Assembly (NCBI GenBank): GCA_963575745.1
Contig: CAUYUJ010000244.1
Coordinates: 1 to 64,000, forward strand
DNA from: Prorocentrum cordatum
Lineage: Eukaryota
DNA length: 64,000 nucleotides
Direction: 5' to 3'
This document shows positions 29,852 through 38,500 of this stretch, piece by piece (position 1 is the first letter of the stretch; each line of letters starts with the position of its first letter). A program made the position numbers and the translations under genes. A model generated the notes under the pieces. The model ran no database searches and was not told the origin of the DNA. It saw nothing but the letters and a program-made list of their open reading frames with translations.

Positions 29852-30709
29852 AGACTAGGGGCGTGCTTACGGCCCTCTGTCTTGTCACGCTGACTGTTCG
29901 GGCCGCGTGCCCGCGGCCGCGCGAATGGCCAAGGCCAGCACCTCTGAGTGGTCATTCGGGCTCATTCGGCTGCGGCGGGGGGCACGAATCCACCGTGACA
30001 CCCACAATGTGCGTAAGCACGTCCACAGGTGACGACCCAAGGAAGACCCCCAAGAGTTGTGGAGGACGATCAATGGAGAGGAAGCGTGCTGCCGAATAAT
30101 TCTCCAGATGTCTAATCACATGTTTCAAACCTGTTTTAGATAGGTAAAAACATGTTTGAAGCCTGTTTAGAACATGTTTAACACAATTCAAGCATTTTTT
30201 AGTTCAATGATAGGACAGTTAGAGTGTCCATTGTCGTCGCATCCACAACCCAAGAGGCATTCGAAACGCAAAAACCATTGGTTCCGATGGTTTTGCATGA
30301 TTTGGGGAGGTCTCTGAAGAGGGCTCTCGGGCAGTCCAGGAGGAGCCCCAAGACGGCCCAACAGGTCTCCAAGATTGCCCGAAGAGAGCTTCATGACGGC
30401 CCACGATGGCCCCAAGACGCCCCCCGAATCATTCCAAATCGTGATCCGGTCGTTCAGGGAAACCGCGGTTGGAACTAGGGTGGCCCGGGGAACCCCCCAG
30501 AAGGAACCCAGGAGGCCTCAAGAATACCCCAATAAAGCCTTTAAAATTATCCTGAGGCCCCTAGGGGCTTTTCTTGGATGAGCCTCCGCAAAAAGAGCTG
30601 GAGGATGGGGACGAATTCGCAGGGTAGGAAGAGAAGGAGCAAGAGGAGGAGGAGGAACTATGAGGGACGGACAACGAATCACATTATTACAACGACGGCG
30701 CCATAATAA

Positions 30710-31640
30710 CACACATACATATACATAAACATATATATTTATATATCTTCATCTATACAGATATATACACATACATACCTGCACACGTACATATATACAT
30801 ACATGCTCATACATACAGACATGCTCGCATGCTCGTTTATTCATACATCCATACATTCATACGTATATACATACATACACATCGGCGCATTCATACGCAT
30901 ACATACATGCATGCATACATACCTACATACCTACACATACACACATACATACATACACACATGCACACATACAAACATACATTCATGCATACGCATACAT
31001 ACATACATACCAGCATACATACATGCACGCACATACGTGCATACGCACATACGCACATACATGTATACATACATACGCACGTGCACACAAGCATACATAC
31101 ACACATACATGTACACATACATACACACATACATACACACATACATACACGCAACACACATATATACATACATGCATGCACACACACACGCACATGTACA
31201 TACACACACATACATGCGTACACACATACATACATACACACACTCATACACACCTGCGTACATACGTGCGTACATACATACATACATACATACATACATA
31301 CATACATACATACATACATACATACATACACACACACACATACATACATACATACATACATACATGCATGCATACATACATACATACATACATGCATACA
31401 TACATACATACATACATACACACACAGACATACATACATACATGCATGCATACATCCATACATACACACATACAAACATACATGCACACATACACATACA
31501 TGATTATATACATACATACATACATCTACGCGCATGCATACAGCAATACATCCATCCATACAGTCACACGTACATGCATGCATGCATACACACACTGACA
31601 GACATGCATATCGACATGCATACACACATACTACACACAT
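30710..31640 (+). repeat. (CATA)n/(CA)n microsatellite
   Basis: Direct reading. Confidence 0.95.
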
Positions 31641-32360
31641 ACGGCGTATACAGAAACACCCGGGGCTGTACAGGCTGTCGGTGAGGAGCACACCGCGTCT
31701 CAAATGCGAGCTCCGACGTCGCTCGTGCTCAGGAGAATCACCTGAATAGGCATTCGGCCCGAGAGTGAAATGAGCATCGTCGTCGTTAGCGGCGGCAGTT
31801 TCGTAGGTCCGGATGGAGGTGGCTGCGCAGGCTCTGCAGGCGCCGATGGAGGAGCTGCGGGCGCAGCTCGCGCGGGCGCCGGGTGACGCCCGGGGAGGCC
31901 CGCGAGGAGGCCGCCGCGGGGCGCAGGGGCGCCGCCGGGGGAGGACGTCGAGAGGGAGGTGCACATCTGTCGGTTGGCGCACCGCTGCTGGGGAAGCCTC
32001 CGAGGCTCCGCTCGCGGCCGGCGGAGTGGCCGAGCTGGGGCGTGCTCGCGCGGAGCTGCGCGGGCCTGATGGCCACGCGCAGAGGGGGGTAGGGGGAAGA
32101 GAGAAGGCTTCTGAGAAGCACCCCTGCCTCTTAGACGGCGCGGGCCTTCTTTGTAGATGTAAGGCCGGCGCCTTCTGAGAAGCAGCCTCCTTCTAAGAAG
32201 CCTCCCCCCCCCCTACCCCCTTGTGCGCGCCGCCAAGCCTGGCCAGCCAGCAGCCGCCGCACCTGATGCAGACCGCGATGGACGACCGTGCGTCCTGCAG
32301 TGGCCCGTGCCGCATCCTGCTGCACCCCGCGGAGGGCGCAGCGTTCACGAGGTGCCGAAC

Positions 32361-32813
32361 TCACCGCCCACCACACCACCCCAGCCCAATCCAACCCGAA
32401 GGCTCCGTTTTGCCTTCCATATCCAGTAGGGGGGGCGGGGAGCATGTCTAATAAATAAATAAATTCATACATACATACATACATACATACATACATACAT
32501 ACATACATACATACATACACACATACACACATACACACGTACACACATACATACATACATACATACATACATACATACATACATACATACATACATACAT
32601 ACATACATACATACATACATACATACATACATACACACATACACACGTACACATACATACATACATACATACATACATACATACATACATACATACATAC
32701 ATGCATACATTCATACATGTATATATATATATGTATATATGTAGCCCGTGCCCCCCCCCCCGCGCCGAAATTCGGGTTTTCGGGTTGGGTTGGGGTGGTC
32801 TGGTAGGTAGTCA
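32361..32813. mobile_element. MITE family E nested in the copia gag, carrying a (CATA)n core
   Basis: TIR ...accaccccagcccaatccaacccgaa / ttcgggttgggttggggtggtctggtaggtagtca; 5-bp flanks cgaac/tgaac. Confidence 0.75.
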
Positions 32814-33387
32814 TGAACGCTCGGGACCAGGAGGGCCTGATGGCCTGGAAGGCCTTTGTGTCGGAGTACGTGCTGGACGTGAAAAAAAACGCTTTGTTGG
32901 CCACCTCCAACAGATCTTGGCGTTCAGCTCCGCGGGCGACGCGGCGGAACGCGTGGAGGCGTTCGAGCGCGAGGTCGCGTTCTCGGAGGCGCAGTCGACG
33001 GAGCTGATGAGCGACGCCCTGCGCATAAGCGTGGCGATGCGCAACCCGGAGGCGGGACCGACGAGGAGCCATCACATCTCCAACGCGCCCTGGCTGGGCA
33101 CCTGGGCGAACCTCGGGCAGGAGGTCACCGCCCATGCGCCGGGCCTGCCAGGCCTTTGGCATGGCGGGCATCAGCACGCGGCGCTCGCGGGGGCGGGCGC
33201 CAGCTCGCCGGGCAAGCCCGCGCAAGGTAGAGGCCGAGGCGCCGAGGCGCGCGCCGGCTGCCGCCGTGGGGCGCCAGGGCAAGGGGCGGCCAAAGTGCCC
33301 GCGGAGGGGCTGCTGGCCACCTGCCAGCTGGCGAGGGGGGCCATGGGGGGCCGAGAGGAGGCGCTGGCAGGGGCCGCGGCCGGGACA

Positions 33388-33557
33388 TCACCACTTACCA
33401 GACCACCCCAACCCAACCCGAAGGCTTCAATTTACCTTCCATTTCCAGTGTGGGGGGGTCGGGGAACGTTGCAAAAACACATGGCCCCCCCCCCAACCCG
33501 AAATTCGGGACAGATTCGGGTCTTCGGGTTGGGCTGGGGTGGTCTGGTAGGTAGTCA
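33388..33557. mobile_element. MITE family E, second copy nested in the copia
   Basis: Same TIRs with a perfect 5-bp TSD GGACA. Confidence 0.8.
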
Positions 33558-36500
33558 GGACAAGGCAGGCAAGGGCGGCGGGACGGTGCCGGAGAAGTTG
33601 CAGAGCACTTCTCCGAATTGCGGCGGCGAGGGCCGCTGCGCTCGCGAGCGCCCGTCGAAGAAGACGGCGCGCGGCCTCGGCGAGGAGGGGCTGCTGGCGG
33701 GGCCCGCGGCGAAGCCCGAAATGGGCGGCTTGCAGGCGTCGCTCGAGTTCAACAGTCTCGACGACGTGGGCTGCTCGGGCGGCCATTGCGCGACGTCGCT
33801 GGACATGGGGGGCGACGAGCTCGAGCTTCTGGAGGTCGGCGGCGTGGAAGCGCGGGAGATCATCGCCTCCGGCATCGACTCCGGGGCCGCACTGACCACG
33901 ATGAGGAAGCAGGGGCGCGGTCGCTGCCCAGTGTCGCCCACGGCGCAGTCCACGCGCGGCGGGGAGTGCCGCGCCACTTCGGGCCACCGCGTCAAGTTCG
34001 AGGGAGGTCGCCGGCTGCTCGTCGGCGGCGGGGCCGGCCAGGCACCGCGAGAGTCGGTGGCGCATGTCGGCAAGATGGCGAAGTCTTCGGCTGCTGCCGG
34101 CGCGGTGGGCTCAGGTCACGAGGTCGCCCTGTGCGGCGCCGGGCACTGCGCGCTGCGCAAGGCAAGCGGCGCCGCGATGCAGACCCATCGCCGCGGCCGC
34201 GCTTTCGAGGCGGACTTCGAGGCGATGCCGCCCGAGGCGCTCGCGGCATCGGGCCATCCGGGCCTGGGGCAGCTTCGCTGCAGGCCCCCAGACGTGGGGC
34301 GGATCAGCCTGCGCCCCAGGGCCGATGCCAGTAGAGGAGGGGGGCAGGGCCGAGTCGGCCCCCGGCGCTGCGGCGGAGACCCCCGCTGCAGGGGAGCCAG
34401 TTTCCGATGCCTACGTCGACGGCCGCGTCGCACCTCGTCGCGGCGAGGTGGGCCGCAGTGAAGATGCCATCGCAGTCGCTGACATAGATTGCGGGCACCT
34501 GACGCAGAGAGCAAGAGGAGGAGGCGCGGCGCCAGGCGCTGCCGCTGAGGGGGCGCCCGGGTGGCTGCCTCAGTGACGCGTGGCGGGGGCCCCTCGGGCA
34601 GCGCGCCCTCCGGCCACGCGTTGCCTTGCAAGGGCGAGGGGCGCCCCTGGTGCGCCGCGGTGCTCTCGAGCGAGGTCGACGCGGCGGGTCGCGGCTGGGC
34701 GATCCCGAAGTCAGACGGCGAGCCGCCCACCGTCGCGTTGAAGACGGTCGCGGAAGCGGGCGCTACCAAGTTCGGAATCGCTCTGCAGTTGGAGCCCCCC
34801 GCGGGCGACTCAGCCGCCATCGGGTTGGCGGACGGGGCGGCCCGGGACATCGAGGCGAAGGTTCAGGCGCTCAAGTTTGCGCGCGAGGAGCTGCGCGGCA
34901 TCGGGATTGACGAGCATCGCACCGCGCACGGCTGGGTCGTCGACTGCGGCCTTCAGCGGGGAGATCATGGCGCTTCGGCGCAACGAACCGCCGAGTCGCT
35001 TGGATGGGGCGCGTCGAGGGGGCGATGTCGGGGCTTTCCTAGGGTCGAAGTTCAGAACGTCCGCAGGCTCCCCGAGGGCAACCGCGGCGACCCGGCGCTG
35101 CTCGACGCCGTCAGAGGAGCCTCCTGGCAGCGGGCCCCACCCGCCGCGGTCGCAGGCAAGGGGCGAGGGCGCCGCGGCCGCTCCGCCCCGGATCGCGGCA
35201 GAGGCCGAGCCTGTGGCCCCCGCTGCGCAGTTGCCTCCGGCGCTGGACCCCTCGCGAGTTGCGAGGCCGCGCCAGCTCCGCATTCGACGCGATGATGAAT
35301 TGGCCCGCTACAGGCTGACCGAAGACCGTTCCTGCTGCCTCGTCGCCCCCTTCGGCGCGGCGCCTGCCCTGCACTCCGCCGTTGGCCGCGCCCGCGTTGT
35401 GCGAAGCTGATCCGCGCGGCTATCGGCGCGCAGACTCCAGCGGGCATCGCCATTGCCGTGGGAAGCATTGCCATTGGCTTTCTAGGCCCCTGGGCCTGGG
35501 GCGAGGGCTCTGCGCGCGCAGGTTGGCTTCGGGGCCAAATGGTTCCTCGCGTCGTTGCGCGCGGGGCGCGGCGTTGGAGCGCAGCGCGAGACGCCCGAGG
35601 CCAAGCCCCCGGGCGCCACTTCGGTTCGTCAGGCCCGGGCGCGCGGCACAGGCGCGGGCGCGGCCGCGAGGCGCGCGCGGGCGATGGAATTTGCAGGCGC
35701 GGGGCCGGGGCGTGGAGTCTGAGGCGCAGGGCCGTTCGGGCCATGGGCCCTGCGGGCAATGGGCCCAGGGCCTGGGGCGCCCGGCCCGGGCGCGGGGCGC
35801 CAGGCCATTGGCGCGCGGCCCAGGAAATGACGAACTGGAGGGCGCGTCGCCCGGCGCCGGGGCGCGGGGCGCAGGGGCCGCCGGCGGGCGCGCAATGGCG
35901 CGACAAAGTGCGGGGGGCAGGGCGCGGGATCCAGAACCTTGCGGGCCGTTAATATTTGCGGTGGCGGCGCTGCGGGGCGTCTGGCGAGGGGCGCAGGGTT
36001 GTCTCGCAGGGTGGGCTCTGGGCCCAGTGCTGCGGGCGCCGTTCGGCAATTGGGGCGCGCGGCGCTCGGCGGGAAGCGTCGGGCGCGGGGGTCCGCGCTC
36101 GCAGCTTGCGACGGCGGAGCGGCGCGCGCGGCGCAGGGGCACGCGGCGCCATCGTTTCGATATGGGGCGCAGGGGCGGGGCCCAAATCAATCCAAAGAAG
36201 GCGCGGCGCCAGCGCGCGACGCGCGAGGCCCCGAGCGCAGGCGCCGGGCGCCTGCTCGCGGGCGCGAGCCATCATCCGCGCGCGCTGGCGGCGCTCGAGG
36301 GGCCCGATGGGCAGGGGGTGGGGAGGGGGCCGCGCCGCGGAACTATTGATGCGCATCCCAGACCCAGAACTGATGCACCAGCAACGGAATTCATGCGCGC
36401 CCCAACTCCCCAACCTCGACATACATGACCGACCCCCAAGCTCACGCCCGGGGAAATGATCGATGCGTTTCCCAAGCCCGAATTTGACACTCGGCGAAAG

Positions 36501-36989
36501 TGCGGATGCGCTTCCCGACCCCCGAAGTTGATGCCCAGCGCAAGAGTTGATGCGTCTCCCAATTCCCAGATTCACATGGCGCCCCCCGCCCCCGCTGGCA
36601 CGGCGGCCACTTGCGAACTCGACCAACGAGCCAACAGTCTTCTACGAGTCAGCAAGCGGAGCGCGTACCATATTTTTGCAGAACCCTCTCTTTGGCTCTC
36701 CCCCACCCTCTCGCTGCGATTTGTTCCAAAAACTCTCCCCGTCCCCTGCGTTCCCCAGGCCCCGTGTTTTGCAAAGTCCCCTCCCCGCCCGCGTCGCGAT
36801 TTGCCCGAAGCCCCCCTCCGCGCCCCCCCCCCCCCCCCGCGTTTTGCAAAGTCCCCTCCCCGCCCGCGTCGCGATTTGCCCGAAGCCCCCCTCCGCGCCC
36901 CCCCCCCCCCCCCCCTCCGCGCCAATTGTTTTACAGAGTTCCTTCCCCGCCGACCCCCGCGCCCGGATTTTGGATTTTGCAATGCCAAA

Positions 36990-37687
36990 AAACACGCACA
37001 CACACACACGCACACGCACACGCACACGCACACGCACACGCACACGCACACGCACACGCACACGCACACGCACACGCACACGCACACGCACACGCACACG
37101 CACAAGCACACGCACACGCACACGCACACGCACACGCACACGCACACGCACACGCACACGCACACGCACACGCACGCGCACACGCACACGCACGCGCACG
37201 CGCACGCGCACGCGCACGCGCACACACGCCCACACGCACACACGCAACCACGCACACACGCACACACGAACACACGCCACACACGCACACACGCACACAC
37301 GCACACACGCACACACGCACACACGCACACACCGCACACACGCACACACGCACACGGCACACACAGGCACAACACACGGCAACACACGCACACCACACGC
37401 ACACACACGCAACACACACGCACCACACAACCGCACACACACGCACACACACGCACACACACGCCCCAACACGCACACACACGCGCACACACACGCACAC
37501 CCCACACACACGCCACACACTAACACGCACACACCACACACACGCACACACACACGCACACACACACGCGCACGCGCCACGCGCACGCGCACGCGCACGC
37601 GCACGGCACGCGCACGCGCACGCGCACGCACACGCGCACGCACGCGCGCACGCACGCACACGCACACGCACACGCACACGCACACGC

Positions 37688-37728
<41 letters not shown>

Positions 37729-37927
37729 ATACACAACGCACACACATACACGCACACACAACACACAACACACACAACACGCAACACACAACACACAAAC
37801 ACGCACACACACACACACGCACGCACACGCACACGCACACGCGCACACACACACACACACGAGCACAAGCACAAGCACAAGCACAAACACAAAAAAAACA
37901 CAAACATAAACAAACACACACACACAC
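36990..37927 (+). repeat. (CACACG)n/(CA)n microsatellite
   Basis: Direct reading. Confidence 0.95.
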
Positions 37928-38500
37928 CAAACCGAACTTATTTTCACCCCATCCATGTCCTGCCCCGCCCGCATCTGAAGTTCTTGCAAAGTTCCCCCCC
38001 CGCCCCACCCCGCCATCGAGATTATTGCAGAGGGCCCCGCTGCCCCCCCCCCCCCCGTCGAGACCCCGGCAGAGCCCGCCCTGCTGCTGCCCCCGCGCGG
38101 CGTTCTGCACAACCTTCCCGCAGACAGTGCCGTTTTCAATGCATGCTCCGCGTGCGGATCGTGTATGACAAGCGCAGGGTTTAGCATTAAAAACAACGAT
38201 GAGTTCATGTATCCATTGATTTATAAAGTAATCATGTATTCAAAATTGTATATCTCAAAGAATCCTATGTATTAACAAACTGCTCTGTACCAGCCCTGCC
38301 GCGTCGAGACTGTTTCCCAGTCGCGCGGCGCGCTGCGGCGGCGGCGGCGGCGGCGGCCGCGCCCTCCCCGTCGTGCGCCCAGCTGCCCCTTCCGTGCCTC
38401 TCGCCGCCTGCCACCCCCGCCCACGGGCGGCCCCCCCTTCGATCCCTCCACAGTTTTGCGCCTCCGATTCCTCCTCCTGCTCCACTTCATCATCATCATC

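What the first reader, a model, noticed from the sequence alone, without database searches (positions are those of the whole stretch)
31813..36340. Directional T>C / A>G erosion of a copia element: possible 'reverse-RIP' transposon-inactivation process
Seen: the zinc knuckle reads PNCGGEGRCARERP. The invariant His and last Cys of the CCHC motif have become Arg (CGC), explicable as CAC>CGC and TGC>CGC. Other positions where copia proteins normally carry Tyr or His read Cys or Arg (IDCG, GECR, GHCALRK, GRPW, RSCAG); this comparison relies on my recollection of the family consensus. The 3' part (35400-36340) is flooded with GCGC, while AAT/ATT/AAAG patches survive, suggesting context dependence (often AC/GT>GC). 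One TIR and TSD of the nested MITE also differ from their partners by T/C and A/G transitions (ctacctacc vs ccgcccacc; tgaac vs cgaac). Established: dinoflagellate DNA contains abundant 5-hydroxymethyluracil in place of T, and fungal RIP mutates repeats in the opposite direction (C>T). Inference: a repeat-targeted mutagenic process, possibly hmU:G mispairing, may inactivate TEs and drive GC richness.
Basis: partly seen in the sequence, partly recalled or inferred. Interest (0 to 1): 0.78.

Follow-up and report, generated by a model that had tools for sequence, protein, structure and literature searches.

The report
Dead retroelement eroded toward G and C
A broken jumping gene in a probable dinoflagellate has lost about a quarter of its A and T letters to G and C in a one-directional, context-dependent way, which hints at an unusual mutation process, but one locus cannot show that the process is aimed at jumping genes.

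Summary
The erosion is real. Window 31813-34302 is a dead gag / zinc-knuckle / aspartic-protease gene of an LTR-retroelement family. A profile built from 24 relatives without the window hits it at E=8e-34. Three small insertions and at least two frameshifts break it.

Polarised against 17 relatives, the protease domain shows A>G 16/57 and T>C 13/55. The reverse changes are G>A 3/88 and C>T 1/67. Transversions show no bias. The change is equal on both strands. It depends on context: an A followed by C changed in 19/44 cases, an A followed by G in 1/32. The nearest relatives show the opposite bias.

Element pieces are 74.6% GC. Insertions and flanks are 60.1%.

Not shown:
- "Copia". No integrase or reverse transcriptase was found.
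- That the 3' 1.4 kb belongs to the element.
- Targeting of repeats. Non-element microsatellite arrays in the window show the same direction of bias, but weaker: ratio 1.2-3.8 against 10.
- The 5hmU link. Published figures argue that 5hmU alone is not enough.

No DNA of relatives could be fetched, so the family-wide test remains undone.

The parts
31813..32069 (+). gag, N-terminal piece; frameshifted; 78% GC
   Evidence: tblastn P0018 residues 34-85 against 31889-32056, E=0.011. The start at the ATG at 31813 is placed by eye only. GC, which measured 31813-32084.
32070..32235 (.). small palindromic insertion (34-nt inverted arms) that splits gag
   Evidence: Inverted repeat I1, 79% complementary. 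62% GC over 32085-32225.
32236..32360 (+). gag piece between the two insertions; 74% GC
   Evidence: Likeness to P0018 seen by eye only. GC measured over 32226-32347.
32361..32813 (.). MITE copy 1 with an expanded (ATAC)n core; 5-bp target-site duplication CGAAC/TGAAC
   Evidence: Arms match MITE 2 at 80-95%. Array of 67.5 units. Duplication read.
32814..33387 (+). gag, central and C-terminal part with a decayed first knuckle; frameshift near 32870; a less eroded patch at 32816-32915 (56% GC)
   Evidence: tblastn P0018 163-543 against 32878-34230, E=1.3e-29, and P0003, E=3e-30. 34/84 identical residues in 32878-33129. Period-3 z=16.
33388..33557 (.). MITE copy 2; perfect 5-bp duplication GGACA/GGACA; 58% GC
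   Evidence: Duplication read. GC measured over 33390-33555.
33610..33654 (+). decayed second CCHC zinc knuckle (SPNCGGEGRCARERP)
   Evidence: Aligned with CHRCGK[MF]GHYANKC of P0018, P0003 and P0021. zf-CCHC in the relatives at E=8.6e-10 and 3.9e-9.
33742..34302 (+). aspartic protease domain (D-S-G kept inside GIDSGAAL at 33871-33894) with many A>G and T>C replacements
   Evidence: Family profile built without the window: E=8.3e-34 over 33742-34251. phmmer, 17 relatives. Spectrum.
34303..34935 (+). coding-derived stretch downstream of the protease, same frame; possibly the start of an integrase; unverified
   Evidence: Period-3 z 4.5-8.9 at 34576-34900. Atlas leads to rve, SH3_retrovirus and gag_pre-integrs at 0.83-0.87 only. 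Nothing in Pfam, the PDB sequences or the homolog search.
34936..36340 (.). GC-rich block (73-78%) with no codon periodicity; GCGC excess and clustered A/T; origin unknown
   Evidence: One public contig is 99% identical over 35399-35754.

Best explanation
Window 31813 to about 34900 is a dead, fragmentary LTR-retroelement gene: gag, two zinc knuckles, an aspartic protease, and perhaps the start of an integrase. It belongs to a family otherwise known only from unnamed environmental proteins. After it lost function, or as it did, its DNA was changed mainly by one process: A:T to G:C transitions. These were equal on both strands, favoured where the A is followed by C or A and preceded by a pyrimidine, and almost absent where a G follows. 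This converted roughly a quarter of the A/T at first and second codon positions, destroyed the zinc knuckles, and raised GC to about 75% in the element-derived DNA.

I read this as a chemical or repair bias acting on an A or T in DNA. It acted much more strongly on this element than on the neighbouring DNA. That makes it an element-focused hypermutation or erosion, working either on the integrated repeat or on its replication intermediates.

Shown: the homology, the direction, the strand symmetry, the context, and the match between high GC and the element pieces. Inferred: that the process is focused on the element, and its chemistry (adenine deamination, or oxidised thymine such as 5hmU/5-formyl-U mispairing with G).
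For: Homology.

Dead copy: three insertions, frame changes between the tblastn pieces, and knuckle Cys/His lost.

Direction (136 columns): A>G 16/57, T>C 13/55, G>A 3/88, C>T 1/67. W>S is 32/112 against S>W 8/155, p=1.5e-7. With stricter polarisation (119 columns) it is 23/91 against 5/143.

Only transitions are biased: W>S transversions 3/112 against S>W transversions 4/155.

Strand symmetry: A>G against T>C, p=0.67. Complementary contexts behave alike: A[C] 11/24 and [G]T 8/20; A[G] 1/16 and [C]T 0/16.

Context, strands collapsed: 3' C 19/44, A 6/17, T 3/19, G 1/32. CAC 9/14, TAC 4/5, GAG 0/15.

Sister lineages, with at least 5 outgroups in support: window W>S 18 against S>W 3; P0001 0 against 7; P0002 0 against 2.

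All 17 relatives imply a second-position GC of 0.38-0.51, against 0.59-0.65 in the window over the same columns.

GC steps at the outer ends: 0.60 to 0.81 at 31813 and 0.83 to 0.56 at 36341. Pooled, element pieces are 2799/3753 and insertions plus flanks 646/1074.

The element's transition ratio of 10.0 exceeds the pooled non-element arrays' 1.64 (z=3.69).
Against: - This is one locus, and no DNA of any relative was available. Changes were inferred from amino acids by parsimony, at first and second codon positions only.
- Non-element arrays show the same direction of bias. Two of them (ACAT ratio 3.35, ACG ratio 3.83) are not significantly below the element (p=0.054 and 0.087).
- Both flanks are themselves repeats and may simply be younger.
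- The GC-rich block starts at the gag start codon. The 173 bp upstream are 59% GC, which is odd if a whole integrated element were targeted.
- One gag patch (32816-32915) is only 56% GC.
- Variants in arrays are not independent events, so the arrays are a rough control.
- The nearest relatives may come from organisms with lower GC.
- The 3' 1.4 kb, where the signature is strongest, cannot be tied to the element.
Confidence: 0.4

Rival explanations
1. There is no targeting. This genome as a whole has a mutation or repair bias towards A:T>G:C transitions, which would fit its roughly 58-60% GC. The element is simply an old, neutral sequence that has recorded the bias for a long time. The insertions, the microsatellite and the tandem-repeat flanks are younger or are constantly renewed.
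For: Every class of non-element array has more A:T>G:C than G:C>A:T per site, with ratios 1.17-3.83. In arrays, A followed by C changes more often (6.3%) than A followed by G (3.8%). Both flanks are repeats. P. cordatum is the most GC-rich dinoflagellate genome described, at 59.7% (PMC11114475, passage), and the window fits it: 58% GC outside the element.
Against: The pooled array ratio of 1.64 implies an equilibrium near 60% GC, not 75%, and is significantly below the element's 10.0. No other complex stretch of the 64-kb window exceeds about 70% GC. In the arrays, GAG sites change as often as TAC sites (5.1% against 4.7%), unlike in the element (0/15 against 4/5).
Confidence: 0.3
2. Biased gene conversion between dispersed copies of the family. 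Heteroduplexes between copies are repaired towards G:C by a glycosylase specific for G:T mismatches. Only the homologous element DNA gains GC.
For: High GC coincides with the element pieces and skips the insertions. A repair enzyme specific for G:T (or G:hmU) mismatches would explain why only transitions are biased; this rests on established knowledge of TDG/MBD4-type enzymes (abstracts listed).
Against: Ordinary GC-biased conversion also favours W>S transversions, and here they are 3/112 against 4/155. Conversion should also homogenise the copy with functional donors, yet conserved residues are destroyed. No second copy lies in the window.
Confidence: 0.12
3. Hypermutation before integration. 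A deaminase edited adenines in the element's RNA and in its single-stranded cDNA, so the copy was dead on arrival. This is the A-directed counterpart of APOBEC3 restriction.
For: Sharp outer borders and unaffected later insertions. The same context on both strands. The preferred Y-A-C context recalls TadA/ADAT-type adenosine deaminases; this is recalled knowledge, not from any call. Dinoflagellates have extensive RNA editing of unknown mechanism that raises GC (PMC11453091, passages read).
Against: No such enzyme is known for these organisms. The context does not fit ADAR: a 3' G is the least edited, at 1/32. No LTR or untranslated region with the signature can be identified. Non-element arrays show the same direction of bias.
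Confidence: 0.1

Closest known systems
Repeat-induced point mutation (RIP) of fungi
   Same: A transposon copy is riddled with transitions of one direction, with a dinucleotide context, which destroy its genes.
   Different: RIP changes C:G to T:A and lowers GC. Here A:T becomes G:C and GC rises. Dependence on duplication and on a sexual stage could not be tested. A search for 'dinoflagellate' plus 'repeat-induced point mutation' listed four papers, none of which by title or abstract start concerns such a process in dinoflagellates; I did not open them.
APOBEC3 (G>A) and ADAR (A>G) hypermutation of retroviruses and retrotransposons
   Same: Editing of a retroelement produces dense transitions of one type in a preferred context, and dead copies.
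   Different: Those footprints sit on one strand only. Here A>G (16/57) and T>C (13/55) are equal on the coding strand. The ADAR neighbour preference (3' G) is the opposite of what is seen (1/32). The ADAR and APOBEC preferences are recalled knowledge.
GC-biased gene conversion
   Same: A net W>S fixation bias raises GC locally.
   Different: Here the bias is limited to transitions, depends on context, and ends at the element's borders.
5hmU marking of transposable elements in dinoflagellates (A. carterae, PMC11572971; B. minutum, PMC11071213)
   Same: A thymine modification concentrated on repeats, Copia LTR elements included. It is the only known repeat-focused mark in these organisms that sits on the base being lost here.
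   Different: The papers describe it as a silencing mark, not a mutagen. No sequence motif was found in B. minutum. I found no statement about T>C mutation in the passages read. A. carterae has 62% of its T replaced, yet 44.8% GC.
Ty1/copia LTR retrotransposons
   Same: gag with CCHC knuckles, followed by a D-S-G protease and a C-terminal strand-rich part. In my recollection of the family, this layout resembles copia.
   Different: No integrase, reverse transcriptase, RNase H or LTR was detected. In the relatives, ORF1 ends just after the protease (P0018).

Membership tests
LTR retrotransposon gag-protease gene | gag with CCHC zinc knuckle(s) | tested here: met
   Relatives P0003 and P0018 have zf-CCHC at E=8.6e-10 and 3.9e-9. 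The window has the homologous but decayed knuckle at 33610-33654.
LTR retrotransposon gag-protease gene | retropepsin-type aspartic protease with D-S/T-G | tested here: met
   D-S-G lies inside GIDSGAAL at 33871-33894. Family profile E=8.3e-34. Pfam gag-asp_proteas matches only weakly, below its cut-off, in 11 of 18 members.
Ty1/copia (Pseudoviridae) | integrase placed between protease and reverse transcriptase | tested here: inconclusive
   No rve or RVT_2 hit in any frame. Nothing in the homolog search or the PDB sequences. The only lead is the Atlas, to rve/SH3_retrovirus/gag_pre-integrs clusters at 0.83-0.87. The AlphaFold model had pLDDT 32.7.
Ty1/copia (Pseudoviridae) | long terminal repeats flanking the element | tested here: not met
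   blastn of the left (31640-32347) and right (36341-36760) ends against the whole window found no match.
RIP-like repeat-targeted mutagenesis | C:G>T:A direction with CpA context | tested here: not met
   The direction is the opposite: 29 A:T>G:C against 4 G:C>A:T.
RIP-like repeat-targeted mutagenesis | confined to repeated DNA, absent from single-copy DNA | tested here: inconclusive
   Element pieces are 74.6% GC against 60.1% for insertions and flanks. Non-element arrays show the same bias, but weaker. No genome is held.
ADAR-type hyperediting footprint | A>G on one strand only | tested here: not met
   A>G 16/57 against T>C 13/55, p=0.67.
GC-biased gene conversion | W>S excess for transversions as well as transitions | tested here: not met
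   A>C plus T>G is 3/112; G>T plus C>A is 4/155.
   No 5hmU map exists for this organism. The published maps are for other species (PMC11572971, PMC11071213).

The most novel reading that the evidence does not exclude
Prorocentrum-like dinoflagellates have a repeat-focused hypermutation process that is the mirror image of RIP and APOBEC. It converts A:T to G:C on both strands in a Y-A-[C/A] context, perhaps through repeat-directed thymine oxidation or adenine deamination. It kills retroelements and helps to push the genome to the highest GC content known among dinoflagellates.
Probability: 0.2. Interest if true: 0.85.

Novelty: new variant of a known kind. Interest (0 to 1): 0.55.

Why it matters
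The known ways in which genomes mutate their transposons to death (RIP, APOBEC) all remove G:C pairs. ADAR editing gives A>G, but on one strand only. A DNA-level, two-strand, context-specific A:T>G:C erosion would be a new mutational signature.

It would offer a testable cause for the unusually high GC content of Prorocentrum genomes. It would also allow a test of whether the repeat-enriched base 5hmU has a mutational cost.

If the bias turns out to be genome-wide and not aimed at repeats, it is still an unusual spectrum. Most organisms mutate towards A:T.

Tried and rejected
- Whole genome: none is held.
- Reads: one run was listed, with word share 0.07. Laying it gave one 365-nt contig, 99% identical over 35399-35754, and short GC-rich scraps. 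No family copies came from it.
- DNA of relatives: two metagenome scans and three viral-contig scans confirmed none. The alignment A1 was too diverse for the scan.
- Protein word searches: 34549-35295 found none. P0001 found only itself. A1 with 'longer' found none.
- NCBIfam and the PDB sequences: nothing.
- AlphaFold of 34549-35292: pLDDT 32.7, unusable. No fold search was run.
- Rfam over 30000-38500: none.
- A second protease fragment at 34310-34501: tblastn E=0.026, but no profile hit. Dropped.
- My hand-set blocks 'gagN' and 'knuckle2' were misregistered and are not used.
- Earlier notes of this scan, searched by place, sequence and words: nothing on this locus or on mutation spectra.
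- Regional isochore: rejected because GC falls to 56-60% within 150 bp of both ends.
- Intrinsic composition of the family: rejected.
- Papers: searches on dinoflagellates with GC-biased gene conversion, RIP, RNA editing plus retrotransposons, and ADAR hypermutation listed no report of W>S erosion of dinoflagellate transposons. For most of these I saw only listings and abstract starts.
Full report
WHAT IS THERE

The window is about 58% GC outside this region and is crowded with microsatellites. Between 31813 and 36340 lies a block of 72-78% GC. Three stretches of lower GC interrupt it.

Pfam recognises nothing here. Ten + strand stop-to-stop frames at E<=10 gave one chance hit. Of 148 open frames across the whole window, only one matched anything, a low-complexity hit.

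A full HMMER search with the frame 33556-34458 against 1.84 billion representatives found 17 proteins at E<=1e-3. The best were P0001 (E=1.7e-31, 43% identity) and P0002 (62% over 65 residues). All come from short, unnamed environmental contigs.

P0003 (387 aa) and P0018 (567 aa) show the full layout: gag, two CCHC knuckles (Pfam zf-CCHC, E=8.6e-10 and 3.9e-9), then the shared protease domain with G-I-D-S-G-A-A. Their reading frame ends just after the protease.

tblastn places P0018 residues 163-543 on 32878-34230 (E=1.3e-29) and P0003 residues 1-384 on 32905-34302 (E=3e-30). A profile built from the 24 relatives without the window hits 33742-34251 at E=8.3e-34 and nothing else in the window.

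So 31813-34302 is a gag / knuckle / protease gene of an LTR-retroelement family.

THE COPY IS DEAD

Three insertions split it:
- A 166-bp palindromic insertion at 32070-32235.
- MITE 1 at 32361-32813, with a 5-bp duplication CGAAC/TGAAC.
- MITE 2 at 33388-33557, with the duplication GGACA/GGACA.

The tblastn pieces lie in different frames, so there are at least two frameshifts. Its knuckles have lost their Cys and His residues.

WHAT IS NOT SHOWN ABOUT ITS IDENTITY

No integrase, reverse transcriptase, RNase H or LTR was found.

The stretch 34576-34900 keeps strong codon periodicity in the same frame. A language-model look-up gave weak leads to integrase-type clusters, at 0.83-0.87. The structure prediction failed, with pLDDT 32.7.

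From 34936 to 36340 there is no periodicity and no homology. 'Copia' is therefore plausible but unproven, and the 3' 1.4 kb cannot be assigned to the element.

Other notes of this scan call this genome a GC-rich, Prorocentrum-like dinoflagellate with many copia elements. I did not test that.

THE EROSION

I aligned the protease domain with the 17 relatives. A change was assigned to the window's lineage when the nearest relatives (P0001, P0002) agreed with each other or with at least two outgroups. The nucleotide change was read from the window's codon by parsimony, at first and second codon positions only.

Over 136 columns:
- A>G 16/57 and T>C 13/55.
- G>A 3/88 and C>T 1/67.
- A>C 3/57 and T>G 0/55.
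- G>T 3/88 and C>A 1/67.
- W>S 32/112 against S>W 8/155, p=1.5e-7.

Requiring at least five supporting outgroups leaves 119 columns, with W>S 23/91 against S>W 5/143.

Three properties stand out.
- Only transitions are biased. W>S transversions are 3/112 and S>W transversions 4/155.
- The two strands behave alike. A>G against T>C gives p=0.67. Complementary contexts mirror each other: A[C] 11/24 and [G]T 8/20; A[G] 1/16 and [C]T 0/16.
- Context matters. With strands collapsed, an A followed by C changed in 19/44 cases, by A in 6/17, by T in 3/19 and by G in 1/32 (AC against AG, p=5e-5). A 5' pyrimidine helps: CAC 9/14, TAC 4/5, CAA 5/8, against GAG 0/15, CAG 1/10 and AAG 0/7.

At the protein level, 6 of 17 ancestral NAY codons changed A>G at position 2, against 0 of 14 NAR codons. 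Three of 6 Val became Ala, while 0 of 14 Leu became Pro. All 19 Gly were kept. Selection does not explain this pattern, because the conservative Lys>Arg is absent while the radical Tyr>Cys is present.

The dinucleotide counts agree. In 33556-36340, AC is 0.59, GT 0.67, GC 1.26 and CpG 1.14. In 35401-36340, AC is 0.33 and GT 0.51.

IS IT SPECIAL TO THIS COPY?

The sister lineages show the opposite bias. With at least five supporting outgroups, the window has W>S 18 against S>W 3, P0001 has 0 against 7, and P0002 has 0 against 2.

All 17 relatives imply a second-position GC of 0.38-0.51, where the window has 0.59-0.65. Many changes hit residues kept by most relatives: H>R with 14/15, D>G with 11/15, V>A with 12/15. 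These changes therefore happened after function was lost, or caused the loss.

IS IT CONFINED TO THE ELEMENT?

GC steps from 0.60 to 0.81 at 31813 and from 0.83 to 0.56 at 36341, measured over 150 bp on each side. It steps from 0.81 to 0.59 at the left edge of MITE 2. Pooled, element pieces are 74.6% GC (2799/3753). Insertions plus flanks are 60.1% (646/1074).

This argues against a regional isochore. But both flanks are repeats: an (ACAT)n array on the left and a degenerate unit of about 44 bp on the right. One gag patch, 32816-32915, is only 56% GC.

As a non-element control I polarised variants in microsatellite arrays against their repeat unit. Transitions per site, W>S against S>W:
- (TAC)n, three arrays: 141/3809 against 60/1893, ratio 1.17.
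- (GAG)n, 25 arrays: 84/1637 against 111/3380, ratio 1.56.
- (ACAT)n beside the element: 88/642 against 9/220, ratio 3.35.
- (ACG)n, three arrays: 23/181 against 12/362, ratio 3.83.
- Pooled, including 9/201 against 0/67 from the (ATAC)n array inside MITE 1: 345/6470 against 192/5922, ratio 1.64.
- Element: 29/112 against 4/155, ratio 10.0.

The element differs from the pool (z=3.69, p=2e-4). It does not clearly differ from the ACAT array (p=0.054) or the ACG arrays (p=0.087).

In arrays, A followed by C changes more often (6.3%) than A followed by G (3.8%). GAG and TAC sites, however, are alike (5.1% and 4.7%).

So the same direction of bias exists outside the element, but it is weaker and variable. 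Array variants are spread by slippage and are not independent events, so this control is rough.

MECHANISM

Four features point to a chemical or repair process acting on A or T in DNA, or on RNA plus cDNA: the bias is limited to transitions, it is symmetric between strands, it is specific to context, and it destroys conserved residues. They do not fit ordinary GC-biased conversion, ADAR editing, or an intrinsic composition of the family.

I cannot decide whether the process is aimed at the element (my reading, 0.4) or is a genome-wide bias recorded by an old sequence (0.3). Ectopic biased conversion limited to transitions (0.12) and A-directed editing before integration (0.1) remain open.

On the 5hmU idea:
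- 5hmU is enriched on repeats in A. carterae and in B. minutum. In A. carterae its reduction activates transposons. In B. minutum the enrichment includes Copia LTR elements (passages of PMC11572971 and PMC11071213).
- In A. carterae, repeats with high 5hmU density are the less diverged ones. This would also be expected if old copies had lost their T.
- Against the idea, no sequence motif was found for 5hmU in B. minutum. The old report for C. cohnii gives TA and TC contexts.
- A. carterae has 62% of its T replaced, yet a 44.8% GC genome that is 56% repeats.

5hmU alone is therefore not sufficient. That 5-formyl-uracil mispairs with G, and that TadA-type deaminases prefer Y-A-C, is recalled knowledge and comes from no call.

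VERDICT

The decisive data are genome-wide copies, LTR pairs, single-copy DNA and a 5hmU map.

Noticed in passing
window 32361-32813 and 33388-33557: Two copies of one MITE family with 5-bp target-site duplications (CGAAC/TGAAC and GGACA/GGACA) and inverted ends of about 35 nt. The first copy has grown an (ATAC)n array of 67 units inside itself. No further copy lies in the 64-kb window.
   Followed up: partly
window 32070-32235: A 166-bp palindromic insertion with 34-nt inverted arms (79% complementary) rich in G and C runs, inside gag. It looks like a second, unrelated miniature element.
   Followed up: partly
window 36341-36760 and 36760-37927: The right flank holds four spaced copies of a GATGCG..TCCCA motif (at 36348, 36462, 36505, 36549). 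A 75-bp unit repeated 2.1 times follows, then a long (CACACG)/(AC)n array. In that array 129 of 468 A read G relative to pure (AC)n. This is the same CAC>CGC change that is favoured in the element, but it was probably amplified by slippage.
   Followed up: partly
whole window: None of 148 open frames of at least 100 codons matches a Pfam family, apart from one low-complexity hit. About 45 microsatellite arrays were found, among them (TAC)n of 645 units and (GTA)n of 1125 units in inverted orientation near the two ends of the window.
   Followed up: partly
window 35399-35754: One 365-nt contig of a public run (coded X1, word share 0.07) is 99% identical to this GC-rich stretch, with 4 differences. 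No other part of the region was covered beyond scraps of 33-42 nt.
   Followed up: no
window 34310-34501, + strand, another frame: There is a weak likeness to the protease of the same family (tblastn E=0.026, including AIAVADIDCGH against LISVAEMVDCGH). The family profile does not support it. It may be a second, older protease fragment or chance.
   Followed up: partly
window 32816-32915: A patch of gag just after MITE 1 is only about 56% GC and keeps Lys, Phe, Tyr and Asn codons, unlike the rest of the element. The erosion is therefore not uniform.
   Followed up: no
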